Positions 14,431 through 34,416 of a stretch of 48,753 bases of DNA are shown here, piece by piece; the first letter of the stretch is position 1; every line of letters starts with the position of its first letter. Below the pieces are notes generated by a model. The model had not been told where the DNA came from. It made no database searches and saw only the letters and a program-made list of their open reading frames with translations. The position numbers and the translations under genes are program-made. The DNA comes from Methanobacteriota archaeon (GTDB lineage Archaea > Thermoplasmatota > Poseidoniia > Poseidoniales > Poseidoniaceae): NCBI GenBank assembly GCA_002720275.1, contig PBHR01000034.1, positions 5,233-53,985 on the forward strand, written 5' to 3'.

Positions 14431-15261
14431 ATGTTCTCTGTAAACCAAAAAATATCCTCTTTTTTAGTTGTTTTTACGCTATTATTGTTGGCAGCCCCAG
14501 TATCCTCTTTACCCGGAGGTGTTGGGCTTGACCAAACATCAGGAGGAGGGCCTGAAGATGTGGCAAAAGATGGTTGTACATGCCATGGGACTGCCCCTAG
14601 CAACTCTGTGACTGCACTTATTGATGATGTGCCATTTGCCTACGTCCCTGGAGAAACATATACCATGCGCCTAGAAGTAATTGGTGGGCCAGAAATGGGA
14701 TCTGGGAATACCGGAGGTTTTTCAATGCTAGCTGATGCAGGTATTTTAGGTGCAGCAGAAGGTTTTGAAACACTTGTGCAAAATTACGAAGATAACTCAC
14801 TAACACTTACGCACACAGAAGAAGGTGCAAAAGTTGGAGATAGAGCCTGGTTAATCACTTGGACTGCACCAGAAGAAAATACGGGAAAAGTTACTTTTTG
14901 GATTTCACTGAATAGTGTGAATGGTGCTGATGCAAATTTAGGAGATATGTGGAACAGATTAACATTCCACATACCTGAAAGTTCTGAAGGAACTCCTGAA
15001 AAAGTATTGAACTCAATTCGGACTATTTTTTCCGGTGACGGTAATGTTGAACCTCCTGCTGCACACGAAGGTCATGTTGAATTGCATGACATGGGTGCCT
15101 CTTTTAGAGCGCATTGGCTTGGATTACTTGGATTTGGGGCGGTAATTGTCGTAATCATTTTTTCAGGTTTTATGCTCAGGTATGGATTCAGTCACTCATA
15201 CACCGGTAGAACAAATTTACTACGGTTAAGATATAAACACATGAGACGGGGGGACCAATAG
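14431..15261 (+). CDS. secreted, C-terminally membrane-anchored protein with a reeler-like domain
   Basis: Has a signal peptide (LVVFTLLLLAAPVSS) and a C-terminal TM (WLGLLGFGAVIVVIIFSGF). The pattern C-T-C-H-G ... YVPGETYTMRLEV ... GGFSMLA resembles the reeler-domain pattern CxxMxPxHG ... YxPGxxVxVxL ... FxGFxLQA. The domain call rests on my recollection of that pattern. Confidence 0.55.
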   Translation: MFSVNQKISSFLVVFTLLLLAAPVSSLPGGVGLDQTSGGGPEDVAKDGCTCHGTAPSNSVTALIDDVPFAYVPGETYTMRLEVIGGPEMGSGNTGGFSMLADAGILGAAEGFETLVQNYEDNSLTLTHTEEGAKVGDRAWLITWTAPEENTGKVTFWISLNSVNGADANLGDMWNRLTFHIPESSEGTPEKVLNSIRTIFSGDGNVEPPAAHEGHVELHDMGASFRAHWLGLLGFGAVIVVIIFSGFMLRYGFSHSYTGRTNLLRLRYKHMRRGDQ

Positions 15262-15722
15262 TGGCCAATGATTTGCTAGAAAAATTACTCCATGATGTAT
15301 CCCTTGGAAAAATTAATGTCAAGGATGCCAAAAAAGCTCTAGAAGGTGTCAATTTAGAAAAAGAGGATTTTCAAAAAGCCGTTGACTTTGGAGTCTTTAC
15401 AGAAGCCGAACCTGGCACAGTAATTAAAGCATCAATTTCTCCCTCTGGTGGCAGTGCCTTAGTTTCATTGATTTTTATTTGGGGGATTTTCTGGGTTACC
15501 TATTGGTCAGGAACAATGATGTATGGCCTGATGAATGGATGGGATCCTCAACAATTATCATACCACATGTTCATCACAATAACTACAATCATAATAATGG
15601 GTATTGTATATCAAAAATGGGTTTTACCAGATTTAATTGTAGTAAAACATGAAAGAAACAAATTTATTCCAGAACACTCTAGAAGAAAACATGAAAAAGA
15701 CTGGCATGAATACAAGGTATAG
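15261..15722 (+). CDS. membrane protein (soluble N-terminal segment + 2 TM), unknown function
   Basis: 153-aa ORF with a GTG start overlapping the upstream stop (TAGTG). It sits inside the Rieske/cyt b cluster. Confidence 0.5.
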   Translation: MANDLLEKLLHDVSLGKINVKDAKKALEGVNLEKEDFQKAVDFGVFTEAEPGTVIKASISPSGGSALVSLIFIWGIFWVTYWSGTMMYGLMNGWDPQQLSYHMFITITTIIIMGIVYQKWVLPDLIVVKHERNKFIPEHSRRKHEKDWHEYKV

Positions 15723-15730
15723 GTGATTTA

Positions 15731-16573
15731 ATGGGTAAAAATTTCGAATTCAAAATTCCTGGAAAAAATGAATCTAGCAAAGAAATCCTTGGTTCTGTAA
15801 TAGACCGAAGACAATTTATCAGATATGGGTTCAATACAGCCGCTGGTGTACTTGCGGCAACTTTTGGAGTTATTGGTTTTGCAGCTATTTTAATGCCTGG
15901 TGGAGGTGGTGGTGGCGGTGATTTAGCCGTGAAATACTGGGCAAAGGGAAGAGAAGACGATGCATGGTATGGTTCAAAACATTTGCAAGAAATGAAATTA
16001 GATGAATTCACAGCTGAAGCTGCAAAAAGTGTTTCTGGCATGGCTGGTGCTTCAGGGATCTGGAATGGTGTTCCAGTAAATGTGGTTTATACCCCCCATC
16101 AAGAAAACAAATCAAAGGCTTTGGAAATAAATGTTCCAAGATACCAATTTGGTGAAGGTTATGATGCCACAGGTAAATACGTAGGACACTTTGAAGATTT
16201 ATCTGAACAAGACCCAATACTAAATCCCGAATCGGGGGTGTTAATTTCATTTGGAAGATGCCCACATCTTTGTTGTATCCCCGGTTGGCAATTAGTGAGT
16301 AATAATTTTACAGAAGATAGTTGGGCACCGGGAGGTACTGAAGAAGGAGGGAACAAATTGTTTTGTATTTGCCATAGCAGTAGATTTGACCCCACTGCTT
16401 TAGAATTGAACGAAAATAGAAATCGTGCAAATGGACAAACATTTACTTATGCTGGAATTAAAAAAGTAGGAGGTCCTGCACCAGTAGGAATACCAATGAT
16501 TCCGGCATACATTAATGGGGGAGTCATTGAAGGGATGATTGACTACATCGACTGGTTAACATATTGTGATTGA
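15731..16573 (+). CDS. Rieske [2Fe-2S] protein with twin-arginine signal
   Basis: Tat motif DRRQFIRYG followed by a TM. The Rieske boxes CPHLCC (CxH) and CICHSSRF (CxxH) are present. Confidence 0.9.
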   Translation: MGKNFEFKIPGKNESSKEILGSVIDRRQFIRYGFNTAAGVLAATFGVIGFAAILMPGGGGGGGDLAVKYWAKGREDDAWYGSKHLQEMKLDEFTAEAAKSVSGMAGASGIWNGVPVNVVYTPHQENKSKALEINVPRYQFGEGYDATGKYVGHFEDLSEQDPILNPESGVLISFGRCPHLCCIPGWQLVSNNFTEDSWAPGGTEEGGNKLFCICHSSRFDPTALELNENRNRANGQTFTYAGIKKVGGPAPVGIPMIPAYINGGVIEGMIDYIDWLTYCD

Positions 16574-16579
16574 GGTGAA

Positions 16580-17455
16580 ATGATGAATACGATGTTTTGG
16601 GTTCTTTGGATATTTATAGCAATTGTTTGTGTATTAGTTGCACTGACGTTGCGTAAAGAAAATGATCAAACCCCTAGAAGAGAAATCCTTAGAGCTGTTG
16701 AATCATCAGGAAAAATGGGGGTTGCTGAAAGATCTTTCTTATGGGTGTTTTCATGGTTAGATACTCGTTTCAGACTACAAGATTATTGGGCAATGAGTAG
16801 AGATACATTCTACACAATGCACAGACAATTACCACTTACACATGCTGAAAAATATAAATTGAAAATTATTTGGTATTGGTATCCTCTTTATTGTTTAGGA
16901 GGTATTTCATTTTTAGCATTCATAATACTAGTAATTACTGGCACAGTTTTGGGAATATACTATGTCCCTGGCGGAGACCTTGAACTAGACCCAACTCCTG
17001 CCTATGCTTCAATGCAATTCATCATGCTGGAATTGCCGTTTGGCTACATCATAAGATCAATTCACCATTGGGCAACACACTTCATGGTTGCATCTGTATT
17101 CTTACATATGTGCAGAGTATATTTTACAGGCGCTTATAGAAATCCTCGAGAATTAAATTGGCTTATAGGTGTTGGTTTAATGTTTTTCACAATCTTTTTT
17201 GGTTATTCTGGATATTTACTTCCATGGGATGCTTTGGCTTTTGGTGCAGCAACAATTGGAATTAACATGGCTGCTGCAACACCACTTGTTGGACCACAAG
17301 TTGCAACATTAATGTTTGGAGGTACTTCTCTTTCTGGAGCAACTGTTACTAGGATGTATTTCATACACGTATTTATTTTACCTGTAATAGTAACTACATT
17401 GATTATTGTACATTTATTCATCGTTTGGGTACAGGGGATTGCGGAACCGCATTGA
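16580..17455 (+). CDS. cytochrome b6-type di-heme cytochrome b (N-terminal half of cyt b)
   Basis: Contains RSIHHWATHFMVASVFLHMCRVYFTGAYRNPRELNWLIGV. The helix B histidines are 14 positions apart and the helix D histidines (FIH...IVH) 15 apart, which is the b6/Firmicute-type spacing. Confidence 0.9.
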   Translation: MMNTMFWVLWIFIAIVCVLVALTLRKENDQTPRREILRAVESSGKMGVAERSFLWVFSWLDTRFRLQDYWAMSRDTFYTMHRQLPLTHAEKYKLKIIWYWYPLYCLGGISFLAFIILVITGTVLGIYYVPGGDLELDPTPAYASMQFIMLELPFGYIIRSIHHWATHFMVASVFLHMCRVYFTGAYRNPRELNWLIGVGLMFFTIFFGYSGYLLPWDALAFGAATIGINMAAATPLVGPQVATLMFGGTSLSGATVTRMYFIHVFILPVIVTTLIIVHLFIVWVQGIAEPH

Positions 17456-17467
17456 GGTGGAAATAGT

Positions 17468-20218
17468 ATGGGATTATTAGGTAATTTGGGTAGAGTTGCT
17501 GAAACCTACATGAATGAAAAAGAAAGATTACTAGAATCCGAAGATTCCGAAATCAGAAAAAGAACTTTTATGGGTCATTTATTATGGCCTCATGAAGTAT
17601 TAAGAGATACTATTATATTTTTATCAATAATTGCCACCCTCTCTTTCTATTCATACCTCATACCTCCTCCATTACACTCTGCTGCCGACCCTATTGCTCA
17701 AGCAGGTTTTGTTTTCCCTGATTGGTACGTTCTTTTCAGTTACGGTTACCTTAGATGGGGAGAATATCTCCCACAATTTGACGTGCCTTTAGGACCTATT
17801 GGAGATTTCTTCAACCAACCTATTTACCCAATGAATGCTGGAGCATGGGGGATTATGCTGACGGGATTACCTGTTGGGATTCTTGCATTGCCTCCGATTC
17901 TTGGAGGAACTGCAAAAAGAGGTGTTGAAGATCCTTGGTTTGCAACTGCAGGTGTAATCTATTTGGCACATGTATGGTTTATCAGCGTATTCTCAATAAA
18001 CATCTTCTTAGATTTATATGGTAAGAATAGAACTGATTCTTGCGGAGTGGACCACGGAGAATTAATATGTGGAGTAAGAGAACCATGGCTTGCGGAAGTT
18101 TTCAATGCAATACCTTGGATATTAACGGGTATTTTAATTTGGATTTTGATTTATTTTGCTGCAAGAATGTTCTTGGTCAATAGTATCGGCGCTAGGACAA
18201 CACCAACAATTAGTAAAAATTTGATTATTGGTGGATTTGTAATTGCACTTCTAGTTAGTGTTTCTACTTATGATTACTATGAAAGAGGTTTTTGGGAAGT
18301 TAAAGGCCTTGGTGCAATGGATGATATCGAAACATTAGAAAAAATGTATGATCAACCACTTGATTATGTCATAGAATATGATAATGAATGGGCTGTAGAA
18401 GGTGATATAATCACAGCAAAAATGAGTTCGAGTTATAAAAATGCATTATATCAACCAACTAATGAATATTTCATAGACTTTTTAGATTCGAATCACCATC
18501 AAAATGAAGATTTGAAAATTAACACATTTTCAACCGAAGGTTCAATCCTAGAAAGTTTTAGTAATTCTGAAAATGAAACCTCAGGAAGTTTTACAATCAC
18601 AAATATGGGCCTTGATAGTGTACCAATAAAAATGAGTTGTAGCGCAAAAACAAGCATTCGTAATGCTGGAACAGTAACTTCATCTTTTGTGCTTTACAAA
18701 AATTCAGAAGAAGTTCTTTCATCTGATTGTTCATTAGATATTGAAAAATTTGTAACACCTGGAGAATATACATGGGAATTAATTATAGATCCTGAAGACA
18801 TCGAATCTGGCTCAGAAATTTACACAAATTACACTGCAAGCATTTCGGCCTTCCAACCATTATTGATTTACAATGAGGGGCACACAATGGAAGGTCAATC
18901 TGTAAACCTAACTACTGAAGAGGATGAATCTTCTTACAGCATGCTTCTAAATCCTGGTTACAAAAAGAATCCAAAAAGTCTTGATGCTAAATTAATTTAC
19001 TCACTATTCATACCATCGGTTACTTTTGGAGCTCTTGCATATGTTGTGCTTAGAGGGATGGCAAGAGGGTATGAATATGAAATGAATAAATGCTACGGTT
19101 GTGATCTTTGTGATGATGCATGCCCAGTACGTCTTTTCAATGCTGGAGATAAATTAAACATAATTTACAACACGTGGAATAATGAAGATGATGGAGTTCC
19201 AATGTATACATGTCTTACATGTTCAGCATGTACAAATGTTTGTCCTCAATTAGTAGATTATGATTCATATGTAGACATAAGAAGATCATTAACGGTTGGT
19301 GTTGCACCAGAAGCTGAAATACCACACACAATTTTAAGAGCTGTTCTAAATGCTGAAATTGATGAAGGTGCAGATGAAAAATTCATCTCTGTTGAGGAAT
19401 ACCCCATTGATTCAAATATCGGCTATTACCCTGGATGTGTGGATTTTATTGATCAAGAAATGGTATTTAGTCATGTAAATGAGGGGACTATGAATCTAGG
19501 AGCCAGTACGACATCTGCATTTACATTATTTGAAGAAATGGGCGAAGAAGTAACTTATCTAGGTAGAGATTTCTTAAAATGCTGTGGTCATGATCAAAAA
19601 TGGCAAGGAATGACAGAAGTATTTGAAAAATTAAAATCATACAACGAAAAGAAATTAAAAGAAAGTGGAATCGATACTTTGGTAAGTAGTTGTGCTGAAT
19701 GTTTCAGAACTTTTGCTAAAGATTATGAATTAGAAGACATAAAAATTATGCACACTACTGAATTTTTAATTGAAAATGGATTTAATATGAATTTGAAAAC
19801 TGAAGAAGAAACCACAGTTACCTACCATGACCCTTGTAGATTAGGCAGACAAATAGGATTATATGAAGAGCCAAGAAATCTGATTAAAGATGTAGACGGT
19901 GTTGAATTAGTGGAGATGGAGCATCATGGCGAAGATGGATTATGTTGTGGGGTTTCAAGCATGATGGCATGTAATGAAAATAGTAGAACAATTCGTTTAG
20001 AACGGTTTGAAGAAGTTAAAGCCACTGGTGCAGATGTAATGTTAACTTCTTGTCCAAAATGTGTTAGCCACTTTGAATGTCTTAAATTTGAAGGTGATCC
20101 AACCCATAACTTTGAAATCTTAGATGTTGTTACATTTTTAGCAAATCAGGTGAATGAAAAGAAAAATAAAGAACTCTTAGATGTAAACACGAAAGAAACC
20201 ACCGCAATTAGTGCTTAA
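17468..20218 (+). CDS. Fusion: cytochrome b C-terminal/subunit-IV-like membrane domain + ~240-aa extracytoplasmic insert + HdrD/GlpC/DsrK-like 2x[4Fe-4S] and 2xCCG domain
   Basis: aa 1-270 carry PDWYVLFSYGYLRW (PEWY-type motif) and about 5 TM. aa 271-507 are hydrophilic and rich in N-x-S/T. A TM spans aa 508-530. The rest carries CYGCDLCDDACP, CLTCSACTNVCP, YYPGC, KCCGHD, HDPCRLGR, LCCGVSS and SCPKC. Confidence 0.8.
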   Translation: MGLLGNLGRVAETYMNEKERLLESEDSEIRKRTFMGHLLWPHEVLRDTIIFLSIIATLSFYSYLIPPPLHSAADPIAQAGFVFPDWYVLFSYGYLRWGEYLPQFDVPLGPIGDFFNQPIYPMNAGAWGIMLTGLPVGILALPPILGGTAKRGVEDPWFATAGVIYLAHVWFISVFSINIFLDLYGKNRTDSCGVDHGELICGVREPWLAEVFNAIPWILTGILIWILIYFAARMFLVNSIGARTTPTISKNLIIGGFVIALLVSVSTYDYYERGFWEVKGLGAMDDIETLEKMYDQPLDYVIEYDNEWAVEGDIITAKMSSSYKNALYQPTNEYFIDFLDSNHHQNEDLKINTFSTEGSILESFSNSENETSGSFTITNMGLDSVPIKMSCSAKTSIRNAGTVTSSFVLYKNSEEVLSSDCSLDIEKFVTPGEYTWELIIDPEDIESGSEIYTNYTASISAFQPLLIYNEGHTMEGQSVNLTTEEDESSYSMLLNPGYKKNPKSLDAKLIYSLFIPSVTFGALAYVVLRGMARGYEYEMNKCYGCDLCDDACPVRLFNAGDKLNIIYNTWNNEDDGVPMYTCLTCSACTNVCPQLVDYDSYVDIRRSLTVGVAPEAEIPHTILRAVLNAEIDEGADEKFISVEEYPIDSNIGYYPGCVDFIDQEMVFSHVNEGTMNLGASTTSAFTLFEEMGEEVTYLGRDFLKCCGHDQKWQGMTEVFEKLKSYNEKKLKESGIDTLVSSCAECFRTFAKDYELEDIKIMHTTEFLIENGFNMNLKTEEETTVTYHDPCRLGRQIGLYEEPRNLIKDVDGVELVEMEHHGEDGLCCGVSSMMACNENSRTIRLERFEEVKATGADVMLTSCPKCVSHFECLKFEGDPTHNFEILDVVTFLANQVNEKKNKELLDVNTKETTAISA

Positions 20219-20576
20219 ATCAATAATGCTTAAAGTGATTAAAATGACAACTAGTGAAGAGTTGAAAACACGACTTAAGTTAGAACAAATTCGTATTGAA
20301 AGAGTTATGAATCAAGCTAAAGATGAAAAATTGGGGAAAATAAAAGGAGGGGAAGAAATGGTTGCTTTTGTTAATGAAGATGCCTGCATTGGATGCGACC
20401 AATGCCCTACAGTCTGTGATGATGATGCAATTGATATGTACTCAAAACCTCTAAAGAATCCACTAATTGAAGTATCATCCAATCGAAAGGCGAAAATCAT
20501 CAGAGAAGATTGCACAGGTTGTAGATTATGTGTACTAATTTGTCCAACTGACGCTATTACAATGATTGAAAGGTGA
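20211..20576 (+). CDS. 2x[4Fe-4S] ferredoxin
   Basis: Carries CIGCDQCPTVCDDDAI and CTGCRLCVLICPTDAI. The start is uncertain because there are several in-frame Met codons, and the ORF overlaps the upstream stop. Confidence 0.8.
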   Translation: MLKSIMLKVIKMTTSEELKTRLKLEQIRIERVMNQAKDEKLGKIKGGEEMVAFVNEDACIGCDQCPTVCDDDAIDMYSKPLKNPLIEVSSNRKAKIIREDCTGCRLCVLICPTDAITMIER

Positions 20577-20860
20577 TTACATTGGTAAAGAAAACAGACG
20601 CTCAAAGATTTGGTGGAGAGTTTGGCCCTGTGCGAAATAAAGAAACAAAAGGAGTAAGCCTCTCTACTTTCAAAAGTTTAGTTTGGACTTCAAATATCGG
20701 GGGGCTTTTATTAGTCGCAATTTCCCTAGAATTATTTACTAAAGCTAATTGGTTATGGGCCACAATATGTTTGATTTCTGGCATTGTAATAGCATTATTT
20801 CCATCAAATTATGAAATTGTAGGAATGGAAAGTTTTGACAATGCAAATGAACAAGAGTAA
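20573..20860 (+). CDS. small membrane protein (2 TM)
   Basis: 95-aa ORF whose start overlaps the ferredoxin stop. It is the last gene of the co-directional cluster. Confidence 0.4.
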   Translation: MITLVKKTDAQRFGGEFGPVRNKETKGVSLSTFKSLVWTSNIGGLLLVAISLELFTKANWLWATICLISGIVIALFPSNYEIVGMESFDNANEQE

Positions 20861-20869
20861 TAATTATAC

Positions 20870-22054
20870 TTAATTTAATTCTTTACCCATAGCAATAAAG
20901 GATAATTTAGACACTAAATCATACCAATCAAGTTTTCTCTTTTCTAATATTTCTTTATTTACCTCATCAGGTAATAAAAATTTAGAAGAGGGAGTATTTA
21001 GATTTTCAAACTCATTTTTTTTGCTGTTAGATCTAAAAAACCAAACAAGTTCTCTACCCCCAATTGAATAACCAACGGGTTCTAGAATAGATGAATTACT
21101 ACTTAGAGCAGTTGGAACGCCCTCTTGGATTAAGAAATTCTCTGCAGATGTGCCTCCTTTCCCATAAGTTAATCTTTTAATTTTCCTTTTTGATAAATTC
21201 TTAATTTCTTCACCCGACTTAATTGAAATAATTCCCAAACCATATGTGCCTTTATCATTCTTAATAAAAATTTGAGGTTCTGAATCAATACCATATTTTT
21301 CATATTTATTTCTGATCTTTTCAATCAGTTCATCTATTTCTATGGCTAACTTATTAGTACATTCTTCATATTCTAAACATTTATTCTCACTTACAAACCA
21401 CATTGGCATCAATAACCAAGGATCGAGGTCTAAAATCTTAGAAACCTCTTCGACCAATAATTTAAGTTGGAAATAATGTTCTGACTTTTTTCTTTTATGC
21501 CAACCCATTTCAACTGAAGGTTCAACTAAACCTGAAAGACCAGGGACCACTCCTGCTGTTAAATCATTATTCAAAATAATTAAATCTGGTGTTTTTCCTT
21601 CAATCTCTAATTCATCATTACTATTTATTGATACCTTATCAATTCTTAAATCGTCATTAATTCCTTCTAAAAGAGCATATCGATTCAATTCAAGAGAACC
21701 TATTGTAACCTTGTAACCTGCATTTTCAATAATTTCTTTTAATCTTAAAAGATTCTCAACATAACCAAGATTTCGATTATGCGATTCTGGAAAAAGATGT
21801 AAATGTTTAATTTCACCAAACTTATCCAATAAAAATTTTTTGAGAGATTCTGATAAATCCGGGATGGAGCCTGCTGACAAATTATTAAATCCTGCAGGAA
21901 AATAATTTGCATCTACTACAGAGACTTTCCAATTAGAAAAACGTACATCTACACTCCCATAAAACGGCATTTCCACTTCTGCATAATTTTTCAAAAACCA
22001 TTCATTTAATTCATCACGGTTTTTTTGTAAATTTTCATAAAAAGAATCCAACAT
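20870..22054 (-). CDS. gshA: glutamate--cysteine ligase-like protein (GshA, Acidithiobacillus-type family)
   Basis: The N-terminal FYGSVDVRFSNWKVSVVDANYFPAGFNNL and PESHNRN resemble my recollection of the PF08886/TIGR02049 family. This has not been verified by search. Confidence 0.5.
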   Translation of the reverse strand: MLDSFYENLQKNRDELNEWFLKNYAEVEMPFYGSVDVRFSNWKVSVVDANYFPAGFNNLSAGSIPDLSESLKKFLLDKFGEIKHLHLFPESHNRNLGYVENLLRLKEIIENAGYKVTIGSLELNRYALLEGINDDLRIDKVSINSNDELEIEGKTPDLIILNNDLTAGVVPGLSGLVEPSVEMGWHKRKKSEHYFQLKLLVEEVSKILDLDPWLLMPMWFVSENKCLEYEECTNKLAIEIDELIEKIRNKYEKYGIDSEPQIFIKNDKGTYGLGIISIKSGEEIKNLSKRKIKRLTYGKGGTSAENFLIQEGVPTALSSNSSILEPVGYSIGGRELVWFFRSNSKKNEFENLNTPSSKFLLPDEVNKEILEKRKLDWYDLVSKLSFIAMGKELN

Positions 22055-22062
22055 GAGAACAC

Positions 22063-23904
22063 CTACACTAATCTGCTTAGAATCTGATCCACAGTTTTAT
22101 TACTAATATTTGTTTGATAATTTTCCACAAATAAAACCTCAAATAAACCTAAACCTAATGCTAATTCTGGTTGATATGATAACAATTTACTTTGATTTTG
22201 GTATCTTTTGATTAAAATTTCAAGATATGAATTATGCGAAGAAATAAAATCCTCAAACAAAGAGGGGGTTGTTGCTTTTCCAGCAGGCAACTTTGGTCTA
22301 TCCGTAATCGATTTTGGTAGCCCTGTTAATCTTGCTGCATGCCTTAAAGCCAATTTTTCTTCTCCATGAGATGCATTTTTTGAGAGTCGCCAATTAAGAG
22401 GTATCTGTTTTGACTCACCCCAATGCGATTTCCCCAAAAAAGGAACCCTAACTTCTAATGCATGAGCCATAGAATGCCTATCTACAAGCCTTAATTGAAA
22501 ATTTGTAAGTTGGCCTCTTTCCATCTCAAAATCTAAAGTGGATTCTAGTGATGAAAAATCTTCTTCTGGTAATAATCTTTTAGAATTCCAAGGCGCATGT
22601 AATCCTAAATCGTCCTGGTCAATATTATAATCAATTAATTCCAATCTACTTTTTATTAAATTTGAATGTTTCTTTAAATCCTTATACCTTGGATATCCTG
22701 CATGTAATTCATCTGCTCCTTGTCCACATAACCCCACTTTAACATGTTTTGACATTTTTTCAAACAAGGGCTGGAAAAAAAGAACAGTCACATCTAAATC
22801 TTCTCCATGCCAAACTAATTTTGATAATGTCTTTTCAAATGATTTCTCTTCTAATATATGTTGATGATGCTTCAAATCAAATTTTTTAGCAACTAATTCT
22901 GCAGCAACCCAATCTGAATTGTCTTCTGAATCTGCAACTGTCCAACATTCTGGGACTGGTTTATTAGCTTCTTTTGCCGCATCACGAGCTAAAGCTGCTA
23001 CCAAACTAGAGTCCAAACCCCCAGAAAGAACGATTCCTAATGGTACATCAGACATTAAACGGTCAACTAAACTCGATTTGAAACTATTAAGCAAATCTGG
23101 AATTTTATTATTAGGAGTCCAACTATGGCTCAATTCATTAGTATTATTCGAATATTTGGAGATTCCTGTTAAAACCGGACGCCCTAATTTGTCAAGACTC
23201 CAAGTTTCTATAACTCCAGCACCAACCTGATTTACACCTTCAAGTAGAGTTGTACGATCAAGCGGGTATTCATACGCTAATCTTAAATTTAAAGCATTAT
23301 AATCAAATTTTGGAATATAATCTGGATGTGCTGTAAATGCCTTTAATTCACTAGCCACTAACAATGAGTCACCAACCATTGTTCTAAGCAAAGGTTTTAC
23401 TCCCATAGGATCTCTACAGAGGATTAATTCATTACATTTTGAATCCCAAATTGCAAATCCCCAAATCCCATCTAATTTACTAACCCATTCATTATGCCTA
23501 GTTGCTGGATTGTTCTCTGAATTGAAACCTCTAGATACAAGAATTCCTGAACTTGTATTTATTTCTTTAATTTGTTCAAAACTTTTCTTCTTTGAATATT
23601 TACTATAAAGTGCTAATATTGACTCACTATCGCCCTTAGTTTTCCAATTATAAATCCCAGTTTCCTTCTTAATGTGATTTTGATTGTAAATCTCTCCATT
23701 ATGAACTAAAACTGCTCCGTCATCTGAAATAATTGGTTGAAAAGACCCTTTGACATCAACTATTGCTAATCTATTGTGAGCGAGTCCGCATTTTTCGTCA
23801 TACCAAATATTTGAACCATCAGGGCCTCTATGAAATTGTAATTCATTAATTTTCTTTAAAATATCCCCCTCAGGAGAGCCGAGCATAATACCTATACTGC
23901 ACAT
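22063..23904 (-). CDS. asnB: asparagine synthetase-like glutamine amidotransferase (class II Ntn domain + PP-loop synthetase domain)
   Basis: I start it at MCSIGIMLG (Cys2 nucleophile) rather than the ORF-track Met 21 codons upstream. It carries HRGPDG, LAHNRLAIVD and the PP-loop LSGGLDSS. Confidence 0.8.
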   Translation of the reverse strand: MCSIGIMLGSPEGDILKKINELQFHRGPDGSNIWYDEKCGLAHNRLAIVDVKGSFQPIISDDGAVLVHNGEIYNQNHIKKETGIYNWKTKGDSESILALYSKYSKKKSFEQIKEINTSSGILVSRGFNSENNPATRHNEWVSKLDGIWGFAIWDSKCNELILCRDPMGVKPLLRTMVGDSLLVASELKAFTAHPDYIPKFDYNALNLRLAYEYPLDRTTLLEGVNQVGAGVIETWSLDKLGRPVLTGISKYSNNTNELSHSWTPNNKIPDLLNSFKSSLVDRLMSDVPLGIVLSGGLDSSLVAALARDAAKEANKPVPECWTVADSEDNSDWVAAELVAKKFDLKHHQHILEEKSFEKTLSKLVWHGEDLDVTVLFFQPLFEKMSKHVKVGLCGQGADELHAGYPRYKDLKKHSNLIKSRLELIDYNIDQDDLGLHAPWNSKRLLPEEDFSSLESTLDFEMERGQLTNFQLRLVDRHSMAHALEVRVPFLGKSHWGESKQIPLNWRLSKNASHGEEKLALRHAARLTGLPKSITDRPKLPAGKATTPSLFEDFISSHNSYLEILIKRYQNQSKLLSYQPELALGLGLFEVLFVENYQTNISNKTVDQILSRLV

Positions 23905-23927
23905 AAAATCACTCACAATGAGCGTAG

Positions 23928-24053
23928 TCAAACTAAGAAGTTTCCTTTTGTAACAATAATGTAACACATTGCCGCAAAAGAAAATATAAACGCAAATAAG
24001 TATAACCCTTGAGTGGGTTCACGAGGATTATCTTCTGTATTGTTGTCTGACAT
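23928..24053 (-). CDS. candidate 41-aa micro membrane protein (MSDNNTEDNPREPTQGLYLFAFIFSFAAMCYIIVTKGNFLV)
   Basis: An ATG-to-TGA frame read by hand with one hydrophobic helix, ending 23 nt upstream of the proposed asnB start. It is below the ORF-track size cut-off and has no other support. Confidence 0.2.
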   Translation of the reverse strand: MSDNNTEDNPREPTQGLYLFAFIFSFAAMCYIIVTKGNFLV

Positions 24054-24749: not shown

Positions 24750-25625
24750 TTACAACTCCTCTTTCAAATGATTTATTGCTTCATCAAGAGTAATTTGTTC
24801 TGATTCTAATTTTTCAAGAACCTTACTCACATCTTTATGATTCCAAAGTAAATTTTCCCAAGCAAAAGATAATGAGATTCTACTTTTAATTTTATGATTT
24901 TTACCACTTTTTGAAAGTTTTTCCATTTCTAAAAACAATTCTTCAAAGCCTGAATTTTGTTTGGCAGACACCATTAAAATTGGAGGTGAATGATTACTTG
25001 ACAATTGGAATGCTAAACTCAATTGTTCTGCTTTTTCATTTGCTCTTTCAAGATCTGATTTATTTACCAACAAAATATCTGCTAGTTCCATTAACCCTGC
25101 TTTTTCTGCTTGAAGCATGTCTCCTGAATCAGGGGCTTCCACCAATAACAAATATTGAGATACCGCAGCAACCCTGACTTCAGCCTGGCCTGCTCCTACT
25201 GTTTCAATCAATATCTTTTCAAAATTTAAAGCAGACAGCAGATCCAATATGTCACTAATATTACTCGGAATTGCTCCTGACTGTCCTCTTGTAGCCAAAG
25301 ACCTAAAGAAAATATTATCTGAATTGTCTGAATTATTTATTCTAATTCTATCACCTAACAATGCACCTCCACTCAAAGGAGAAGAAGGGTCTACAGCTAA
25401 AACTGCTATTTTTTGATTGTTTTTCAACCAGTCACCAATAATATATTCACAAATACAACTTTTCCCAACTCCTGGTGAACCAGTTATAGCCCAAATTTCA
25501 GCAGTTTTTATGTTAGGAAACTTTTCTTTAATTATAGCACTATTAATTTCTCCACTTTCGATCATACTAATTGTTTTGGATAATGCTCTACGATCACCAG
25601 ATTTTAATTTAATTAAATCCATCAT
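24750..25625 (-). CDS. meaB: methylmalonyl-CoA mutase-associated GTPase MeaB/ArgK
   Basis: Carries GSPGVGKS (P-loop), AVDPSSPLSGGALLGDRIR, ETVGAGQAE and VNKSD (NKxD). Confidence 0.9.
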   Translation of the reverse strand: MMDLIKLKSGDRRALSKTISMIESGEINSAIIKEKFPNIKTAEIWAITGSPGVGKSCICEYIIGDWLKNNQKIAVLAVDPSSPLSGGALLGDRIRINNSDNSDNIFFRSLATRGQSGAIPSNISDILDLLSALNFEKILIETVGAGQAEVRVAAVSQYLLLVEAPDSGDMLQAEKAGLMELADILLVNKSDLERANEKAEQLSLAFQLSSNHSPPILMVSAKQNSGFEELFLEMEKLSKSGKNHKIKSRISLSFAWENLLWNHKDVSKVLEKLESEQITLDEAINHLKEEL

Positions 25626-25634
25626 AACACTTCG

Positions 25635-26084
25635 CTAATCCCAATGCCAATCTGAATCTTCACCACAACCCACTGGCAATGATTCATCTCTTCTTTTTAC
25701 GGCTGAACCAATAAAGTCTGACATCTGAGTGCTAGAAGTCCCTGGTCCAAAAATCGCTCTAACGCCTTTAGAAAACAGATTCCCCCTATCTTTTTCTGGA
25801 ATAATACCTCCGGCAAATACAATCACATCATTACAATCTGAAGCTACAAGCAATTCAACTATTTTTGGAATTAAAAAATTATGAGCACCAGATAATGAAG
25901 AAAGCCCAAGAAAATCTGCATCTTCATCGATTACAGTTCTAACAATCTCTTCTGGAGTTCTTCTAAGGCCTGTGTAAATAACTTCGTGACCTGCATCTCT
26001 TAATGCACGTGCTACAACCTTTGCACCCCTATCGTGTCCATCAAGGCCCGGCTTGGCAATTATTATGCGTAACCGCTCATCCAT
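25635..26084 (-). CDS. methylmalonyl-CoA mutase small subunit (B12-binding domain)
   Basis: Contains KPGLDGHDRGAKVVARALRDAGHEVIYTG, the DxHxxG cobalamin-binding signature. Length is 149 aa. Confidence 0.9.
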   Translation of the reverse strand: MDERLRIIIAKPGLDGHDRGAKVVARALRDAGHEVIYTGLRRTPEEIVRTVIDEDADFLGLSSLSGAHNFLIPKIVELLVASDCNDVIVFAGGIIPEKDRGNLFSKGVRAIFGPGTSSTQMSDFIGSAVKRRDESLPVGCGEDSDWHWD

Positions 26085-26201
26085 GATATACCATAGATGG
26101 TCTCTTTCAAATAGTTTATTTGATTCTCATCTAATATTGTTAATTTATAACTATCATACAAAATCAATATGAGGCTTATGCTCTCTGTTAGGTCTGATAG
26201 A

Positions 26202-27755
26202 ATGGCACCTAATGACAACAAACTTTCTGATTTGCGTGCTAGAAAGGCCAAAGCAGAGGCAGGGGGAGGCGCTGCAAGAATTGAAGCACAACATAAAAGA
26301 GGGAAATTGACTGCAAGGGAAAGACTCGAATTATTAGTAGATGAAGGGACATTTCATGAAATTGATTCATTGGTAGAACACCGATGTAGAGATTTCGACA
26401 TGGATAAAAACGTAATTCCAGGTGATGGAGTAGTAACTGGGCATGGAAAAATAGGAGGGAAACCGATTTATTGTTTTGCCCAAGATTTTACTGTATATGG
26501 TGGTTCTCTAGGAGAAATGCATGGATTAAAGATTTGTAAGGTTCTAGACATGGCATTGAAAACTGGAGTTCCCGTAATTGGATTAAACGACAGTGGTGGT
26601 GCTAGAATTCAAGAAGGTGTAGCAAGCCTTGGAAGTTATGCTGAAATTTTCTTTAGAAATGTAAGAGCTAGTGGAGTAATCCCCCAAATTAGTTTGATAA
26701 TGGGTCCTTGTGCCGGGGGTGCGGTTTACTCTCCAGCAATTACAGATTTTGTTGTAATGGTTGATAAATCAGCACACATGTTCATCACAGGCCCTGAAGT
26801 CATCAAAACAGTCACAAATGAAATCGTTAGTTTCGAAGATTTGGGGGGTGCCACCACCCATAACAGTAAATCCGGTGTTTCACATTTCATAGCAGAAAAT
26901 GACGAAGATGCAATTGAAATTGCCAGAGAATTAATCTCTATTTTACCTGCTAATAATCTTCAAAAAGCGCCATCAAAAAAGAATAATGATGATCCAAACC
27001 GCCTTTGCGAAGATTTAATTGATTTAGTTCCAGAAGATCCAAGTCAACCATATGATGTAAAGAATGTCATTTCATCAATTGTAGATGATGGAGCATTTTT
27101 AGAAATTCAATCAGAATGGGCGAAAAATATTGTTATTGGCTATTCACACTTAAATGGAAATTTAATTGGTGTTATTGCCAATCAACCATTACATTTAGCA
27201 GGCTGCTTAGATATTGATGCTTCAAATAAAGCAGCTAGATTTGTTAGATTTTGTGATGCATTTAATATTCCTTTACTCACACTAGAAGATGTTCCTGGAT
27301 TCTTACCTGGAGCATCACAAGAGTGGGGTGGAATTATTAGACACGGTGCAAAATTATTATTCGCTTTTTCAGAAGCCACTGTTCCTAAATTGACTGTAAT
27401 TATGAGGAAAGCATATGGTGGAGCATATGATGTAATGTGTTCTAAACACATCAGAGGAGACTATAACATCGCATGGCCAAGTGCAGAATTAGCAGTAATG
27501 GGTGCAGATGGGGCTGTACAAATAATTCACAAAAAAAGAATTAATTCTGCTAGAAATTCTGAAGAAGAAAGGGCAAGGCTAATTGATGAATACAAAGAAA
27601 CGTTTGCAAATCCATACAGGGCCGCCGCATTAGGATATATTGATGACGTCATTAATCCAAATGAAACAAGAAAAAAACTATGTTTAGCACTAAATATGCT
27701 CATGGATAAGCAAGAAAATAGGCCTGAAAGAAAACATGGAAATATCCCGTTGTGA
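26202..27755 (+). CDS. pccB: propionyl-CoA carboxylase beta subunit / methylmalonyl-CoA carboxyltransferase
   Basis: Matches the carboxyltransferase family throughout ([58 protein letters not shown]). I prefer the start at MAPNDNK (26202) over the ORF-track Met at 26169. Confidence 0.9.
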
Positions 27756-29207: not shown

Positions 29208-30626
<1,419 letters not shown>

Positions 30627-33918: not shown

Positions 33919-34416
33919 ATGAGGCCATCGAGAGGGGTAAGCATGGGGATAGAATGGGAGCCACTAATTGCTGAATCAGAAGACAGTAGTGAAAATGACA
34001 TCTTAACACCCAATCTGCATAGTTTATCTGTATCTCCAGAAGAACTACACAGTGCATTTTTTGATCAAGCACAACATTTGACAGATGCAATTGTAAATCA
34101 AAACATAGTTATAGATATTTCAGGAGAAATTCCTGAAAAAGCAAATGAAAATCAAAGAATGATATCTATTGAATCAATTGCAAATGAATTCAACGGCGCT
34201 CTTAACGAAACTACATTACAAATACCATTCAAAGGTATTTCAGAAGAAAACATCAATATCGAATATTCAAATATTGATTCAAATTGGGCAATAAAACTTT
34301 CAATAAGTTCTTCTGATTTAAATCAAAATGAGATTGTGCGTACTTTTTTACTGCCGAAAACGGCTGATGAGCCGACTGCAAATTGGTCATCCAATAACTT
34401 AAGTATTAAATTCTAA
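33919..34416 (+). CDS. acidic protein with an Hsp20/alpha-crystallin-like C-terminal half
   Basis: I prefer the ATG at 33919. LQIPFKGISEENINIEY and RTFLLPKTADEPTANWSSNNLSIKF resemble the ACD patterns xDlPGxxxedIxV and RxfxLPxxvdxxxixAxxxnGvLxI. Confidence 0.4.
   Translation: MRPSRGVSMGIEWEPLIAESEDSSENDILTPNLHSLSVSPEELHSAFFDQAQHLTDAIVNQNIVIDISGEIPEKANENQRMISIESIANEFNGALNETTLQIPFKGISEENINIEYSNIDSNWAIKLSISSSDLNQNEIVRTFLLPKTADEPTANWSSNNLSIKF

What the first reader, a model, noticed from the sequence alone, without database searches (positions are those of the whole stretch)
17468..20218. Cytochrome b subunit-IV-like domain fused to an HdrD/GlpC/DsrK-type Fe-S + CCG module inside a Rieske/cyt b operon
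Seen in the sequence: one 916-aa ORF holds three parts.
- aa 1-270 is a membrane domain with the PEWY-type quinol-site motif (PDWYVLFSYGYLRW).
- aa 271-507 is a hydrophilic, sequon-rich insert.
- One further TM is followed by two CxxCxxCxxxCP ferredoxin motifs and two CCG-type cysteine clusters (YYPGC/KCCGHD and HDPCRLGR/LCCGVSS/SCPKC).

Established knowledge: CCG domains (HdrB/HdrD, SdhE, GlpC, DsrK, HmeD) normally partner with NarI-type di-heme b subunits, not with Rieske/cyt b6-type complexes.

Inference: the low-potential heme-b branch of a Q-cycle enzyme may be wired on the cytoplasmic side to Fe-S/thiol-disulfide chemistry and to the ferredoxin encoded next (20211-20576). That would be an undescribed variant of the Rieske/cyt b complex. 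I do not know of a described enzyme with this architecture.
Basis: partly seen in the sequence, partly recalled or inferred. Interest (0 to 1): 0.8.

Follow-up and report, generated by a model that had tools for sequence, protein, structure and literature searches.

The report
Cytochrome b6 complex with Hdr-like wire
In abundant marine archaea (Marine Group II), one subunit of the respiratory Rieske/cytochrome b complex is permanently fused to a cytoplasmic four-cluster iron-sulfur module, which probably lets the complex exchange electrons directly with a ferredoxin encoded next door; the layout has been mentioned only in passing and never studied.

Summary
ORF 17468-20218 (916 aa) is a real, conserved fusion of three parts:
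- a cytochrome b C-terminal/subunit IV domain with an invariant PDWY motif;
- an extra two-helix hairpin and a variable extracellular beta-sandwich;
- a cytoplasmic 2x[4Fe-4S] + 2xCCG module whose closest solved relative is mycobacterial EtfD.

It sits in a conserved seven-gene cluster: outer-face protein, DUF7318-like protein, Rieske, b6-type cytochrome b with the haem-ci cysteine, the fusion, a ferredoxin, and a small membrane protein.

All 58 full-length Poseidoniales-type genes found among the 87 fetched loci are fused, so it is not an assembly artefact. Short fused forms and a split form (subunit IV + dicluster, separate CCG protein) occur in other archaea, and the split form is widespread in Thermoplasmata. 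Methanoperedens and Methanosarcinales carry the module unfused, in HdrABC clusters.

Best reading: an EtfD-like electron wire on the cytoplasmic side of a b6-type complex, most likely feeding ferredoxin electrons to the quinone-reduction site. The direction and the partner are inferred, not shown.

"Sequon-rich" is not supported. One 2022 paper noted hdrD-like and rnfB-like genes beside complex III in a related order, so I rate this a new variant of a known kind.

The parts
14431..15261 (+). First gene of the cluster: 276-aa protein with a hydrophobic N-terminus, a 'choice-of-anchor V' domain and a C-terminal TM anchor. It occupies the position held by c-type cytochromes in related operons, so it is a candidate outer-face electron acceptor of the complex.
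   Evidence: NCBIfam NF041895 E 8e-27. No Pfam or PDB relative. Only two Cys, in the motif CTCH, and no CxxCH. Found upstream in 46 of 58 MGII-type loci. The same position holds cytochrome c in L090, a multihaem cytochrome in L003 and a Reeler-like protein in the L006-type contig.
15261..15722 (+). 153-aa small membrane protein, DUF7318-like; a conserved accessory subunit of these archaeal Rieske/cytochrome b clusters.
   Evidence: PF24002 at 21.7 bits, below the cut-off of 27. Proteins at the same operon position in the P0145-type contig, L090 and L091 are listed under PF24002.
15731..16573 (+). Rieske [2Fe-2S] protein with a Tat-like signal.
   Evidence: CPHLCC...CICH boxes including the disulfide cysteines, and DRRQFIRYG. 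Weak TIGR01416 hit. Found upstream in 50 of 58 loci.
16580..17455 (+). Cytochrome b6-type subunit (four-helix haem bundle) with an N-terminal extension of about 100 aa. It carries the cysteine equivalent to b6 Cys35, the haem cn/ci ligand.
   Evidence: PF00033 E 5.5e-42. Best PDB matches are cytochromes b6, E 1e-45, and LYC105LGG aligns to FYC35LGG with all four haem His aligned. The Cys is kept in all 61 orthologs checked: 58 match the C[LIVM]GG pattern, and the three L003-type genes (L003 read directly; L004 and L005 match its protein) have YCFGG.
17468..18022 (+). Fusion protein aa 1-185: cytochrome b C-terminal/subunit IV core, with helices E, F and G and an invariant PDWY Qo-site motif at aa 84-87.
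   Evidence: The family profile hits only b6f subunit IV and cytochrome b in the PDB, in register. The same profile reaches canonical PEWY cytochromes b at E 1e-7 to 1e-3 in 1.84e9 proteins. Fused relatives P0172, P0196 and P0153 pass the PF00032 cut-off.
18023..18277 (+). Fusion protein aa 186-270: short outer loop with two conserved Cys, plus an extra two-TM hairpin specific to the Poseidoniales form.
   Evidence: Absent from the short relatives in alignment A2. Hydropathy. Helices predicted with pLDDT 80-92.
18278..18988 (+). Fusion protein aa 271-507: acidic extracellular insert containing a beta-sandwich (PPC/GOLD-like). It is poorly conserved and specific to Poseidoniales.
   Evidence: 33% mean identity against 70-89% in the flanking domains. 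AF2 strands at aa 353-468 with pLDDT about 90. Foldseek 5sv5 TMt 0.65. 42 D+E against 14 K+R, and sequons not enriched.
18989..19072 (+). Fusion protein aa 508-535: the last TM helix, which returns the chain to the cytoplasm. It aligns with the single fourth TM of the short fused forms.
   Evidence: The first cluster cysteine, C542, lies about 10 residues after the helix.
19073..19327 (+). Fusion protein aa 536-620: HdrC-like domain binding two cubane [4Fe-4S] clusters.
   Evidence: Fer4_8/9/10 hits. All eight Cys are invariant across the family.
19415..20077 (+). Fusion protein aa 650-870: two CCG domains (HdrB-like), each with a complete five-cysteine motif.
   Evidence: PF02754 E 9e-23 with two stretches. 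Motifs read. Sequence match to EtfD 9ojn E 1.2e-23. Foldseek: EtfD E 2.7e-14, LutA TMt 0.75, HdrB TMt 0.62. KCCGHD and HDPC present in 58 of 58 MGII-type genes.
20211..20576 (+). 2x[4Fe-4S] ferredoxin with a charged N-terminal extension. This is the 'RnfB' of MGII papers. The likely true start is ATG 20244, giving 110 aa.
   Evidence: Fer4_21 E 1.2e-14. TIGR01944 rnfB at 49 bits, below the cut-off of 68.7. Adjacent in 48 of 58 loci, 24 on the same strand and 24 inverted.
20573..20860 (+). 95-aa small membrane protein, conserved partner of the ferredoxin gene.
   Evidence: No Pfam hit. Present within 2.5 kb in 52 of 58 loci and it moves together with the ferredoxin gene when that pair is inverted.

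Best explanation
The cluster 14431-20860 encodes a b6-type Rieske/cytochrome b complex. Its subunit IV carries, after an even number of extra TM helices, a cytoplasmic four-cluster chain of two cubane [4Fe-4S] clusters and two CCG-bound non-cubane clusters. This is the same module that forms the electron wire of EtfD, EMO and HdrD.

Shown:
- domain identities and the conserved cluster ligands;
- n-side topology of the Fe-S module;
- the b6-type cytochrome b with the haem-ci cysteine;
- conserved linkage to a 2x[4Fe-4S] ferredoxin gene;
- conservation of the fusion across Poseidoniales, with split and short forms in other archaea.

Inferred:
- The first cubane cluster, whose cysteines begin about 10 residues after the last TM helix, sits at the membrane surface near haem bH/ci. 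The chain would then connect the quinone-reduction (Qi) side of the complex to a cytoplasmic one-electron carrier.
- The most likely partner and direction: the co-encoded ferredoxin, reduced by catabolic oxidoreductases, delivers electrons through the chain to haem bH/ci and quinone at Qi. The quinol is re-oxidised at Qo through Rieske to the outer-face protein and on to the terminal oxidase.
- The complex would then work as a ferredoxin-oxidising, proton-motive Q-cycle enzyme with no net quinol consumption. That would be a hard-wired counterpart of the proposed ferredoxin-to-haem-cn route in b6f.
- The extracellular beta-sandwich is a lineage-specific decoration, not part of the redox path.
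For: Domains and motifs.

Subunit IV homology.

Topology: 4 TMs in the short forms and 6 in the window protein, both even, with positive-inside charges.

Cytochrome b is b6-type with a Cys35 equivalent, kept in 61 of 61 orthologs.

The closest solved relative by sequence and by fold is EtfD. In EtfD the same four clusters wire a cytoplasmic donor to haem b and menaquinone, and the cluster nearest the membrane is about 7 A from the haem. In EMO the non-cubane clusters are electron-transfer centres, not catalytic, and the distal cluster varies. In this family the second Cys of CCG-1 is likewise replaced in P0153 (CVG) and P0178 (CTG).

The ferredoxin gene stays adjacent in 48 of 58 loci even where it is inverted.

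Related operons attach other cytoplasmic donor-type modules at the same place:
- FrhB/FdhB-like fusion;
- HdrC-HdrB-HdrA-MvhD;
- flavoprotein + Fer4 + FlpD;
- polyferredoxin;
- the split form, with GlcD/GlcE-like flavoproteins next door.

MGII is described as an obligately aerobic heterotroph. From general knowledge of archaeal 2-oxoacid:ferredoxin oxidoreductases, such an organism has to oxidise ferredoxin rather than make it.

Diamond et al. proposed the same idea independently for Angelarchaeales.
Against: - There is no biochemical, expression or structural data for any member.
- No multimer model could be run, so the distance from the first cluster to haem bH/ci is unknown.
- The window protein keeps all ten CCG cysteines, as catalytic HdrB/HdrD do and unlike M. 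smegmatis EtfD with its CTG and His583. Thiol-disulfide catalysis is therefore not excluded.
- The direction of electron flow is purely inferred.
- Feeding ferredoxin straight into Qi would waste much of its driving force.
- The module's closest sequence relatives are soluble HdrD-like proteins of ANME HdrA clusters, whose function is unknown.
- The ferredoxin is on the opposite strand in half of the loci, so co-transcription is not general.
Confidence: 0.45

Rival explanations
1. Output or bifurcation model. Quinol oxidised at Qo sends one electron to Rieske and the other through bL/bH into the Fe-S chain. There it reduces ferredoxin or another low-potential acceptor instead of, or besides, quinone at Qi. 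The result would be quinone-based electron bifurcation producing low-potential reductant.
For: - The architecture permits either direction.
- In related loci the fused module is followed by HdrA-like flavoproteins and MvhD/FlpD, which are hallmarks of bifurcating systems.
- From my own knowledge, not re-read here: similar proposals exist for anammox Rieske/cytochrome b complexes with NAD(P)-linked subunits.
Against: - MGII is described as an obligate aerobic heterotroph. From general knowledge, such organisms need to dispose of reduced ferredoxin, not generate it.
- The conserved haem-ci cysteine suggests an intact Qi site.
- The solved homologs EtfD and EMO run towards quinone.
Confidence: 0.2
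2. Flavoprotein-docking model. The CCG end of the chain is the docking site for ETF or for FAD-dependent dehydrogenases, as in EtfD/EMO, GlcF, GlpC and LutA. The complex would then be the ETF (or 2-hydroxyacid):quinone oxidoreductase of these archaea, and the neighbouring ferredoxin would be a minor or structural partner.
For: - The closest solved structure is EtfD.
- MGII genomes carry acyl-CoA dehydrogenases and degrade fatty acids and proteins.
- GlcD/GlcE-like FAD_binding_4 pairs lie next to the split form in both L091 and L092.
- NCBIfam similarity to LdhH, GlpC and GlcF.
Against: - No etfAB or FAD_binding_4 genes were found among the window genes scanned, nor in the conserved MGII cluster.
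- The gene that is conserved next to the fusion is the ferredoxin.
- The long disordered C-terminal tail proposed to bind ETF in EtfD is absent here: the protein ends about 45 aa after the last cluster cysteine.
Confidence: 0.17
3. Catalytic Hdr-like model. The two complete non-cubane clusters reduce or oxidise a low-molecular-weight disulfide/thiol, for example a gamma-glutamylcysteine-type thiol. Cytochrome b6 plus subunit IV would replace HdrE/NarI as the dihaem membrane anchor.
For: - All ten CCG cysteines are present, as in HdrB/HdrD, including the last Cys of each CxxC, which is the bridging ligand in HdrB.
- The best NCBIfam hit is TfrB, a thiol-using enzyme.
- A GshA gene lies convergently downstream in the window and in L001.
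Against: - The second Cys of CCG-1 is not conserved across the wider family: CVG and CTG in P0153 and P0178.
- Full cysteine sets also occur in the non-catalytic EMO.
- All NCBIfam scores are far below the family cut-offs.
- GshA synteny was seen only within one order.
- A Rieske subunit is unnecessary for a simple HdrDE-like redox loop.
Confidence: 0.12
4. Artefact: two genes joined by a sequencing or assembly error, or a chance ORF.
For: None found.
Against: - Full-length homologs of 876-967 aa in 58 independent species-level genomes, and 120 or more protein clusters.
- Strong conservation on both sides of the insert.
- Shorter fused forms in other lineages.
Confidence: 0.01

Closest known systems
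Cytochrome b6f / Firmicute-type b6c complexes (split cytochrome b6 + subunit IV, haem ci/cn)
   Same: - Rieske protein with canonical boxes.
- Cytochrome b best matched by b6 (E 1e-45), with four haem His and the Cys35 equivalent.
- A separate subunit IV gene directly downstream with a PEWY-type motif (PDWY).
   Different: - Subunit IV continues into 1 TM (short forms) or 3 more TMs (window).
- It ends in a cytoplasmic 2x[4Fe-4S] + 2xCCG module.
- No cytochrome f/c1; instead a 'choice-of-anchor V' protein without CxxCH.
- Extra DUF7318-like and small TM subunits.
- A ferredoxin gene attached to the cluster.
EtfD (M. smegmatis, PDB 9ojn) and EMO (S. aciditrophicus): ETF:(methyl)menaquinone oxidoreductases
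   Same: The soluble part is homologous (E 1.2e-23; Foldseek E 2.7e-14), with the same order after the last TM helix: TM, two cubane clusters, two CCG clusters. That module is a wire from a cytoplasmic donor to haem b and quinone.
   Different: - The membrane part is not NarI/HdrE-like and has no family-wide invariant His. It is subunit IV of a Rieske/cytochrome b complex, so the haems lie in another subunit.
- CCG-1 is CC as in Hdr, not CTG.
- Glu, not His, at the EtfD His583 position.
- No long C-terminal tail.
HdrDE / HdrBC heterodisulfide reductases
   Same: Dicluster plus two complete CX(n)CCX(n)CXXC motifs. The fold matches HdrB (TMt 0.62).
   Different: - The host is described as a non-methanogenic aerobe.
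- No HdrE.
- Low sequence similarity to HdrB (E 0.24).
- The first CCG spacer is longer (X47).
- Activity unknown.
Soluble HdrD-like proteins at the head of HdrC-HdrB-HdrA-MvhD clusters in Methanoperedens and Methanosarcinales MAGs (the 'occasional HdrD-like proteins' of Chadwick et al. 2022)
   Same: These are the closest sequence relatives of the short fused module P0172 (44-49% identity; 38% for L022). P0172 is itself 37% identical overall to the window protein, and its module is 39-44% identical to the MGII genes. In MAGs GCA_964347835.1 and GCA_012974965.1 the same cluster follows a fused subunit IV-HdrD gene behind Rieske and cytochrome b.
   Different: Unfused, 323-384 aa, with no TM helices and no adjacent Rieske/cytochrome b.
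Complex III-like locus of Ca. Angelarchaeales (Diamond et al. 2022, PMC9038741) and the split Thermoplasmata form (L091, L092)
   Same: hdrD-like and rnfB-like genes beside the cytochrome b complex, with a ferredoxin entry point proposed. The split form has the same gene order as the window.
   Different: - In the split form only the dicluster domain is fused to subunit IV and the CCG protein is a separate gene.
- No extracellular insert.
- The published note is one sentence, with no domain or fusion analysis.

Membership tests
Rieske/cytochrome b complexes (bc1/b6f superfamily) | Rieske [2Fe-2S] protein with CxH...CxxH boxes | tested here: met
   CPHLCC...CICH plus a Tat-like RR motif in ORF 15731-16573. 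Weak TIGR01416 hit.
Rieske/cytochrome b complexes (bc1/b6f superfamily) | Cytochrome b four-helix bundle with four His haem ligands | tested here: met
   PF00033 E 5.5e-42. The alignment to b6 shows all four His aligned.
Rieske/cytochrome b complexes (bc1/b6f superfamily) | Cytochrome b C-terminal/subunit IV domain with a PEWY-type Qo motif | tested here: met
   PDWY is invariant. The profile hits only subunit IV and cytochrome b in the PDB and canonical cytochromes b in the 1.84e9-protein library. Fused relatives pass the PF00032 cut-off. The window protein alone is sub-threshold.
Rieske/cytochrome b complexes (bc1/b6f superfamily) | High-potential c-type cytochrome subunit (c1, f, or fused c) | tested here: not met
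   No CxxCH anywhere in the first gene of the cluster. No cytochrome c family hit for any of the seven gene products. Relatives do have c-type cytochromes at that position.
b6-type subgroup (haem ci/cn) | Cysteine equivalent to b6 Cys35 | tested here: met
   Cys105 in LYCLGG aligns with FYC35LGG. Kept in 61 of 61 orthologs. Actual haem attachment is not testable here.
HdrD-type module (dicluster + CCG, PF02754) | Two CxxCxxCxxxCP motifs and two CX(n)CCX(n)CXXC motifs | tested here: met
   The first CCG spacer is X47, longer than the usual value (about X31-39, from my own knowledge).
HdrD-type module (dicluster + CCG, PF02754) | HdrB/EtfD-like fold | tested here: met
   Foldseek: 9ojn E 2.7e-14, LutA TMt 0.75, HdrB TMt 0.62, on a model with pLDDT 60-90 in this part.
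HdrDE heterodisulfide reductase | NarI/HdrE-type dihaem membrane partner and CoM-S-S-CoB turnover | tested here: not met
   No such gene in the cluster; the membrane partner is cytochrome b6/subunit IV. The activity itself is not testable with these tools.
EtfD/EMO | Own haem b-binding TM domain fused to the Fe-S module | tested here: not met
   The TM part is homologous to subunit IV, and no His is invariant in it across the family.
EtfD/EMO | ETF as electron donor | not tested
   No etfAB among the window ORFs scanned. Whole genomes were not surveyed.
RnfB (for the downstream ferredoxin) | Passes the TIGR01944 cut-off | tested here: not met
   49 bits against a cut-off of 68.7, and only the 2x[4Fe-4S] part matches. 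Published MGII surveys find no other Rnf subunits.

The most novel reading that the evidence does not exclude
A natural b6-type Rieske/cytochrome b complex in which ferredoxin, or another cytoplasmic carrier, is hard-wired through an Hdr/EtfD-type four-cluster chain to haem bH/ci and the Qi site. Complex III itself would then be a ferredoxin-oxidising, proton-motive enzyme; run in reverse, it would be a quinone-based bifurcating source of low-potential electrons. The family is modular and archaea-wide: the same attachment point carries HdrD-like, HdrC-like or FrhB-like modules, and in some lineages whole HdrABC-MvhD sets follow.
Probability: 0.4. Interest if true: 0.85.

Novelty: new variant of a known kind. 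Interest (0 to 1): 0.68.

Why it matters
Marine Group II archaea are among the most abundant microbes of the surface ocean, and their 'complex III' has been called lineage-specific without explanation, with an orphan 'RnfB'. This analysis puts both genes into one conserved machine.

If the Fe-S chain reaches the n-side haems, three things follow:
1. It would answer how these aerobic archaea, and many Thermoplasmata, return ferredoxin electrons to the respiratory chain.
2. It would provide a genetically fixed model for the long-debated ferredoxin-to-haem-cn/Qi route of cyclic electron flow in b6f complexes.
3. It would add a Rieske/cytochrome b-linked class to the non-cubane-cluster (CCG) oxidoreductases. 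The 2026 EtfD and EMO papers read here do not list such a class.

The fused, split and unfused forms, and their link to HdrABC clusters in relatives of methane-oxidising archaea, also bear on how Hdr modules were recruited into quinone-based respiration.

Tried and rejected
- AF2 of the N-terminal 275 aa alone with 13 sequences gave pLDDT 51 and was not used for fold search.
- Pfam on the isolated N-terminal and insert domains: only a sub-threshold PF00032 hit, and nothing for the insert.
- PDB sequence search with the first gene of the cluster found nothing meaningful.
- Homology search with P0145 found a single relative and no organism names. Cluster look-up gave no taxonomy for the short fused forms, so their lineages remain unnamed apart from assembly accessions.
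- ANME and Methanoperedens papers (Arshad 2015, Chadwick 2022, Ferry-type reviews and the 2026 CO paper) were read for a Rieske-HdrD fusion. They describe other Rieske/cytochrome b clusters or soluble HdrD-like genes only.
- The Borrel 2014 Methanomassiliicoccales paper mentions MGII and HdrD, but not together.
- Two literature searches failed on term format, and one in-paper term search failed because a term was too short.
- Rejected readings: assembly artefact; extracellular Fe-S module (even TM count, no Tat signal on the fusion, charge distribution); a glycosylation-rich insert; true RnfB identity for the ferredoxin.

Full report
**1. What is in the sequence**

ORF 17468-20218 (+) encodes 916 aa and starts 12 nt after the stop of a cytochrome b gene. 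Pfam finds two CCG stretches (PF02754, E 9e-23) and a 4Fe-4S dicluster domain at aa 538-594.

Read directly from the sequence:
- Two CxxCxxCxxxCP motifs, at C542 and C582.
- CCG-1: C657-X47-C705C706-X35-C742xxC745.
- CCG-2: C790-X35-C826C827-X34-C862xxC865.
- PDWYVLFSYGYLRW at aa 84-97.

Hydropathy gives six TM segments. Basic residues lie on the predicted cytoplasmic loops, and the 236-aa insert between TM5 and TM6 is acidic, with 42 D+E against 14 K+R. The insert is not sequon-rich: 3 N-x-S/T against 3.1 +/- 1.5 in shuffles.

**2. The fusion is real**

A search of 5.8 billion proteins returned 453 hits. The top 120 are all 901-940 aa, span at least 98% of the query at 60-90% identity, and come from many independent contigs. 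Where named, they are from Poseidoniaceae, Thalassarchaeaceae or 'Euryarchaeota' MAGs.

Conservation by region:
- 70% in the membrane domain;
- 89% in the dicluster domain;
- 75% in the CCG part;
- 33% in the insert.

In the GTDB species genomes at least 595 loci encode a relative. All 58 full-length Poseidoniales-type genes among the fetched loci are fused, at 876-967 aa, and all keep KCCGHD and HDPC. An assembly join or frameshift is excluded.

**3. The N-terminal domain is subunit IV**

On the window protein alone PF00032 scores only 13.8 bits against a cut-off of 20.7. Three further results establish the homology:
- A 13-sequence profile of aa 1-275 hits nothing in the whole PDB at E<1 except b6f subunit IV (E 0.014) and cytochromes b, aligned in register over helix E and the PEWY loop.
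- The same profile, run against 1.84 billion representatives, reaches canonical full-length PEWY cytochromes b, such as P0202 at E 1e-7.
- It also reaches shorter relatives of 543-789 aa that carry Fer4 + 2xCCG. Five of the six pass Pfam's Cytochrom_B_C cut-off: P0172 48.7 bits, P0196 44.4, P0153 32.6, P0178 29.5, P0145 22.5.

Alignment of these with the window protein shows the common core: helices E, F and G, one return TM helix, then the dicluster and two CCG domains. The Poseidoniales form adds a two-TM hairpin and the extracellular insert.

The TM count is 4 or 6, always even. With the N-terminus on the n side, as in subunit IV, the Fe-S module is cytoplasmic. The fusion has no Tat signal, whereas the Rieske protein has one.

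**4. The surrounding cluster**

Upstream genes:
- 14431-15261: a 'choice-of-anchor V' protein with a C-terminal anchor, only two Cys (CTCH) and no CxxCH.
- 15261-15722: a DUF7318-like small membrane protein.
- 15731-16573: a Rieske protein with CPHLCC...CICH.
- 16580-17455: cytochrome b.

The cytochrome b matches cytochromes b6 best (E 1e-45). All four haem histidines align, and Cys105 (LYCLGG) aligns with b6 Cys35. By established b6f structural knowledge, Cys35 is the covalent ligand of haem cn/ci at the Qi site. This Cys is kept in all 61 orthologs examined.

Downstream genes:
- A 2x[4Fe-4S] ferredoxin. It is below the RnfB cut-off, at 49 against 68.7 bits, and probably starts at ATG 20244.
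- A 95-aa membrane protein.

Among the 58 MGII-type loci:
- cytochrome b is immediately upstream in 54;
- Rieske is upstream in 50;
- the ferredoxin is adjacent in 48, with 24 on the same strand and 24 inverted;
- the small protein is present in 52.

The missing cases were not checked individually; many of these loci are short contigs.

This ferredoxin is evidently the orphan 'RnfB' of MGII surveys, and the cluster is their 'MGII specific complex III'.

**5. The C-terminal module**

By sequence the best solved relative is M. smegmatis EtfD (9ojn, E 1.2e-23 over aa 578-897).

A full-length AF2 model (mean pLDDT 74.6) finds:
- EtfD first (Foldseek E 2.7e-14, 586 aligned columns);
- then LutA (TMt 0.75) and HdrB (TMt 0.62);
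- for the insert, a confident beta-sandwich resembling PPC/GOLD domains.

In EtfD the four clusters form a wire from ETF to a b haem and menaquinone, and the cluster nearest the membrane is about 7 A from the haem. In EMO the non-cubane clusters are electron-transfer centres and the distal one varies between enzymes.

The window protein has all ten CCG cysteines, as Hdr does. M. smegmatis EtfD instead has CTG and His583. In the wider family the second Cys of CCG-1 is replaced in P0153 (CVG) and P0178 (CTG), which mirrors the variability of the distal cluster.

All NCBIfam hits are far below their cut-offs: TfrB 109 bits, then LdhH, GlpC, DsrK, TmcB and GlcF. The module is therefore not an equivalog of any named enzyme.

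**6. Relatives and what they suggest**

- *Fused, with Hdr genes.* In MAGs GCA_964347835.1 and GCA_012974965.1 the order is multihaem c, 77-aa protein, Rieske, cytochrome b, fused subunit IV-HdrD (P0172), HdrC-like, HdrB-like, a 1010-aa HdrA-like protein, MvhD/FlpD, multihaem c.
- *Unfused.* In Methanoperedens and Methanosarcinales MAGs the closest module (44-49% identical to P0172; 38% for one locus) is an unfused 323-384-aa protein heading HdrC-HdrB-HdrA-MvhD clusters. These are the 'occasional HdrD-like proteins' of Chadwick et al..
- *Other fused forms.* They are followed by a polyferredoxin (P0145), by a FAD oxidoreductase + Fer4 protein + FlpD (P0178), or by a 180-aa protein (P0186).
- *Split form.* This is widespread, with 190 or more 90%-identity clusters; where named, they are from Thermoplasmata, Thermoplasmatota or Methanobacteriota archaeon MAGs. 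Only the dicluster domain is fused to subunit IV and the CCG protein is a separate gene. The gene order is otherwise the same, and a GlcD/GlcE-like flavoprotein pair lies next door in both loci examined.
- *FrhB fusion.* In L090 subunit IV is fused to an FrhB/FdhB-like F420-type module, behind cytochrome c, DUF7318, Rieske and cytochrome b.

The cytoplasmic end of subunit IV is therefore a general attachment point for redox modules in archaeal Rieske/cytochrome b complexes.

**7. Mechanism**

*Shown:* domain identities, conserved ligands, n-side topology, a b6-type partner with the haem-ci cysteine, and conserved linkage to a ferredoxin gene.

*Inferred:* the first cubane cluster, whose ligands begin about 10 residues after the last TM helix as in EtfD, lies at the membrane surface near haem bH/ci. 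The chain would then couple the Qi side to a cytoplasmic carrier.

I consider input most likely (0.45): ferredoxin, to the clusters, to haem bH/ci, to quinone at Qi. Four points favour it:
- MGII is described as an obligately aerobic heterotroph. From general knowledge of archaeal metabolism, such organisms must re-oxidise ferredoxin.
- The solved homologs run towards quinone.
- The modules found at this position in relatives are donor-type.
- The same idea was raised independently for Angelarchaeales.

With one electron from Qo via bL/bH and one from ferredoxin, quinone is reduced at Qi and re-oxidised at Qo. The result is 2 H+ per ferredoxin electron with no net quinol use. This is the scheme long proposed for ferredoxin-dependent cyclic flow through b6f.

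Rivals:
- quinol-driven output or bifurcation to ferredoxin or a disulfide (0.2);
- ETF or flavoprotein docking as in EtfD and GlcF (0.17);
- catalytic thiol-disulfide chemistry with b6/subunit IV replacing HdrE (0.12), hinted at by the complete cysteine sets and a convergent GshA gene;
- artefact (0.01).

**8. Novelty**

Rieske/cytochrome b complexes and HdrD/EtfD modules are each well known. Their covalent union is not described in any paper I could find.
- Tully 2019 lists the parts separately.
- The 2026 EtfD and EMO papers survey CCG-module enzymes without a Rieske/cytochrome b-linked class.
- Diamond et al. 2022 give one sentence on hdrD-like and rnfB-like genes near complex III, with a ferredoxin-entry suggestion.

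I therefore rate it a new variant of a known kind: noticed in passing before, never analysed, and untested experimentally.

**Limits**
- No multimer model, no coordinates for distance measurements and no expression data.
- No whole-genome survey for ETF or ferredoxin enzymes.
- The lineages of the rare short fused forms remain unnamed.

Noticed in passing
window 14431-15261 (+): The first gene of the cluster encodes a 'choice-of-anchor V' domain protein with a C-terminal TM anchor and a single CTCH motif, but no CxxCH. It sits where related operons have cytochrome c (L090), a multihaem cytochrome (L003) or a Reeler-like protein (the P0145-type contig). It may be a non-haem-c replacement for cytochrome c1/f. 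It has no solved relative.
   Followed up: partly
window 15261-15722 (+); L090 5356-5670; L091 5083-5355: A DUF7318-type small membrane protein is consistently placed between the outer-face redox protein and Rieske in these archaeal clusters. It is probably an unrecognised conserved subunit of archaeal Rieske/cytochrome b complexes.
   Followed up: partly
L090 7001-8596: Subunit IV is fused to an FrhB/FdhB-like (F420-type) module behind cytochrome c, DUF7318, Rieske and cytochrome b, with Fae/Hps nearby. This is a second kind of cytoplasmic redox fusion at the same attachment point.
   Followed up: partly
L003 4729-14876; L004: One apparent operon runs multihaem c, Rieske, cytochrome b, fused subunit IV-HdrD, HdrC, HdrB, a 1010-aa HdrA-like protein, MvhD, multihaem c. 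This looks like a possible membrane-tethered Hdr/Rieske supercomplex in an unnamed archaeal MAG (GCA_964347835.1 and GCA_012974965.1).
   Followed up: partly
L091 11715-14720; L092 11222-14236: Pairs of GlcD/GlcE-like FAD_binding_4 genes lie convergently next to the split form of the system in both loci examined. This hints that flavoprotein dehydrogenases may dock on the CCG protein.
   Followed up: no
L006 898-3174; L088 5426-7924; protein P0157: Extracellular Ig-like or lectin-like domains are repeatedly inserted into or fused to subunits of these complexes: Big_5 on cytochrome b (758 and 832 aa), Laminin_G_3 on subunit IV, and the PPC/GOLD-like insert in the window protein.
   Followed up: no
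window 20870-22054 (-) and 22063-23967 (-): A GshA-type glutamate-cysteine ligase and an asparagine synthase-like gene lie convergently just downstream. The same arrangement occurs in L001, where the fusion is 64% identical. This could be a thiol link or merely conserved synteny.
   Followed up: no
window 20211-20576 (+): The ferredoxin ORF as listed starts at a GTG that overlaps the end of the fusion gene. Relatives are mostly 110 aa, which suggests the real start is ATG 20244.
   Followed up: partly
window 34413-43385 (-) and 43472-46435 (-): A giant 2990-aa ORF is followed by a 986-aa ORF that has no Pfam hit at E<=1e-5. The giant ORF was not examined.
   Followed up: no
window 24750-27755: A methylmalonyl-CoA pathway cluster: MeaB-like GTPase, a B12-binding mutase small subunit, and a carboxyltransferase (PF01039, E 2e-199). 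Glutamate dehydrogenase lies at 29208-30560. This fits an amino-acid and fatty-acid catabolising host.
   Followed up: no
window 16580-16880 (+): The cytochrome b has an N-terminal extension of about 100 aa, with an extra hydrophobic segment, before the b6-homologous region begins at aa 103.
   Followed up: no
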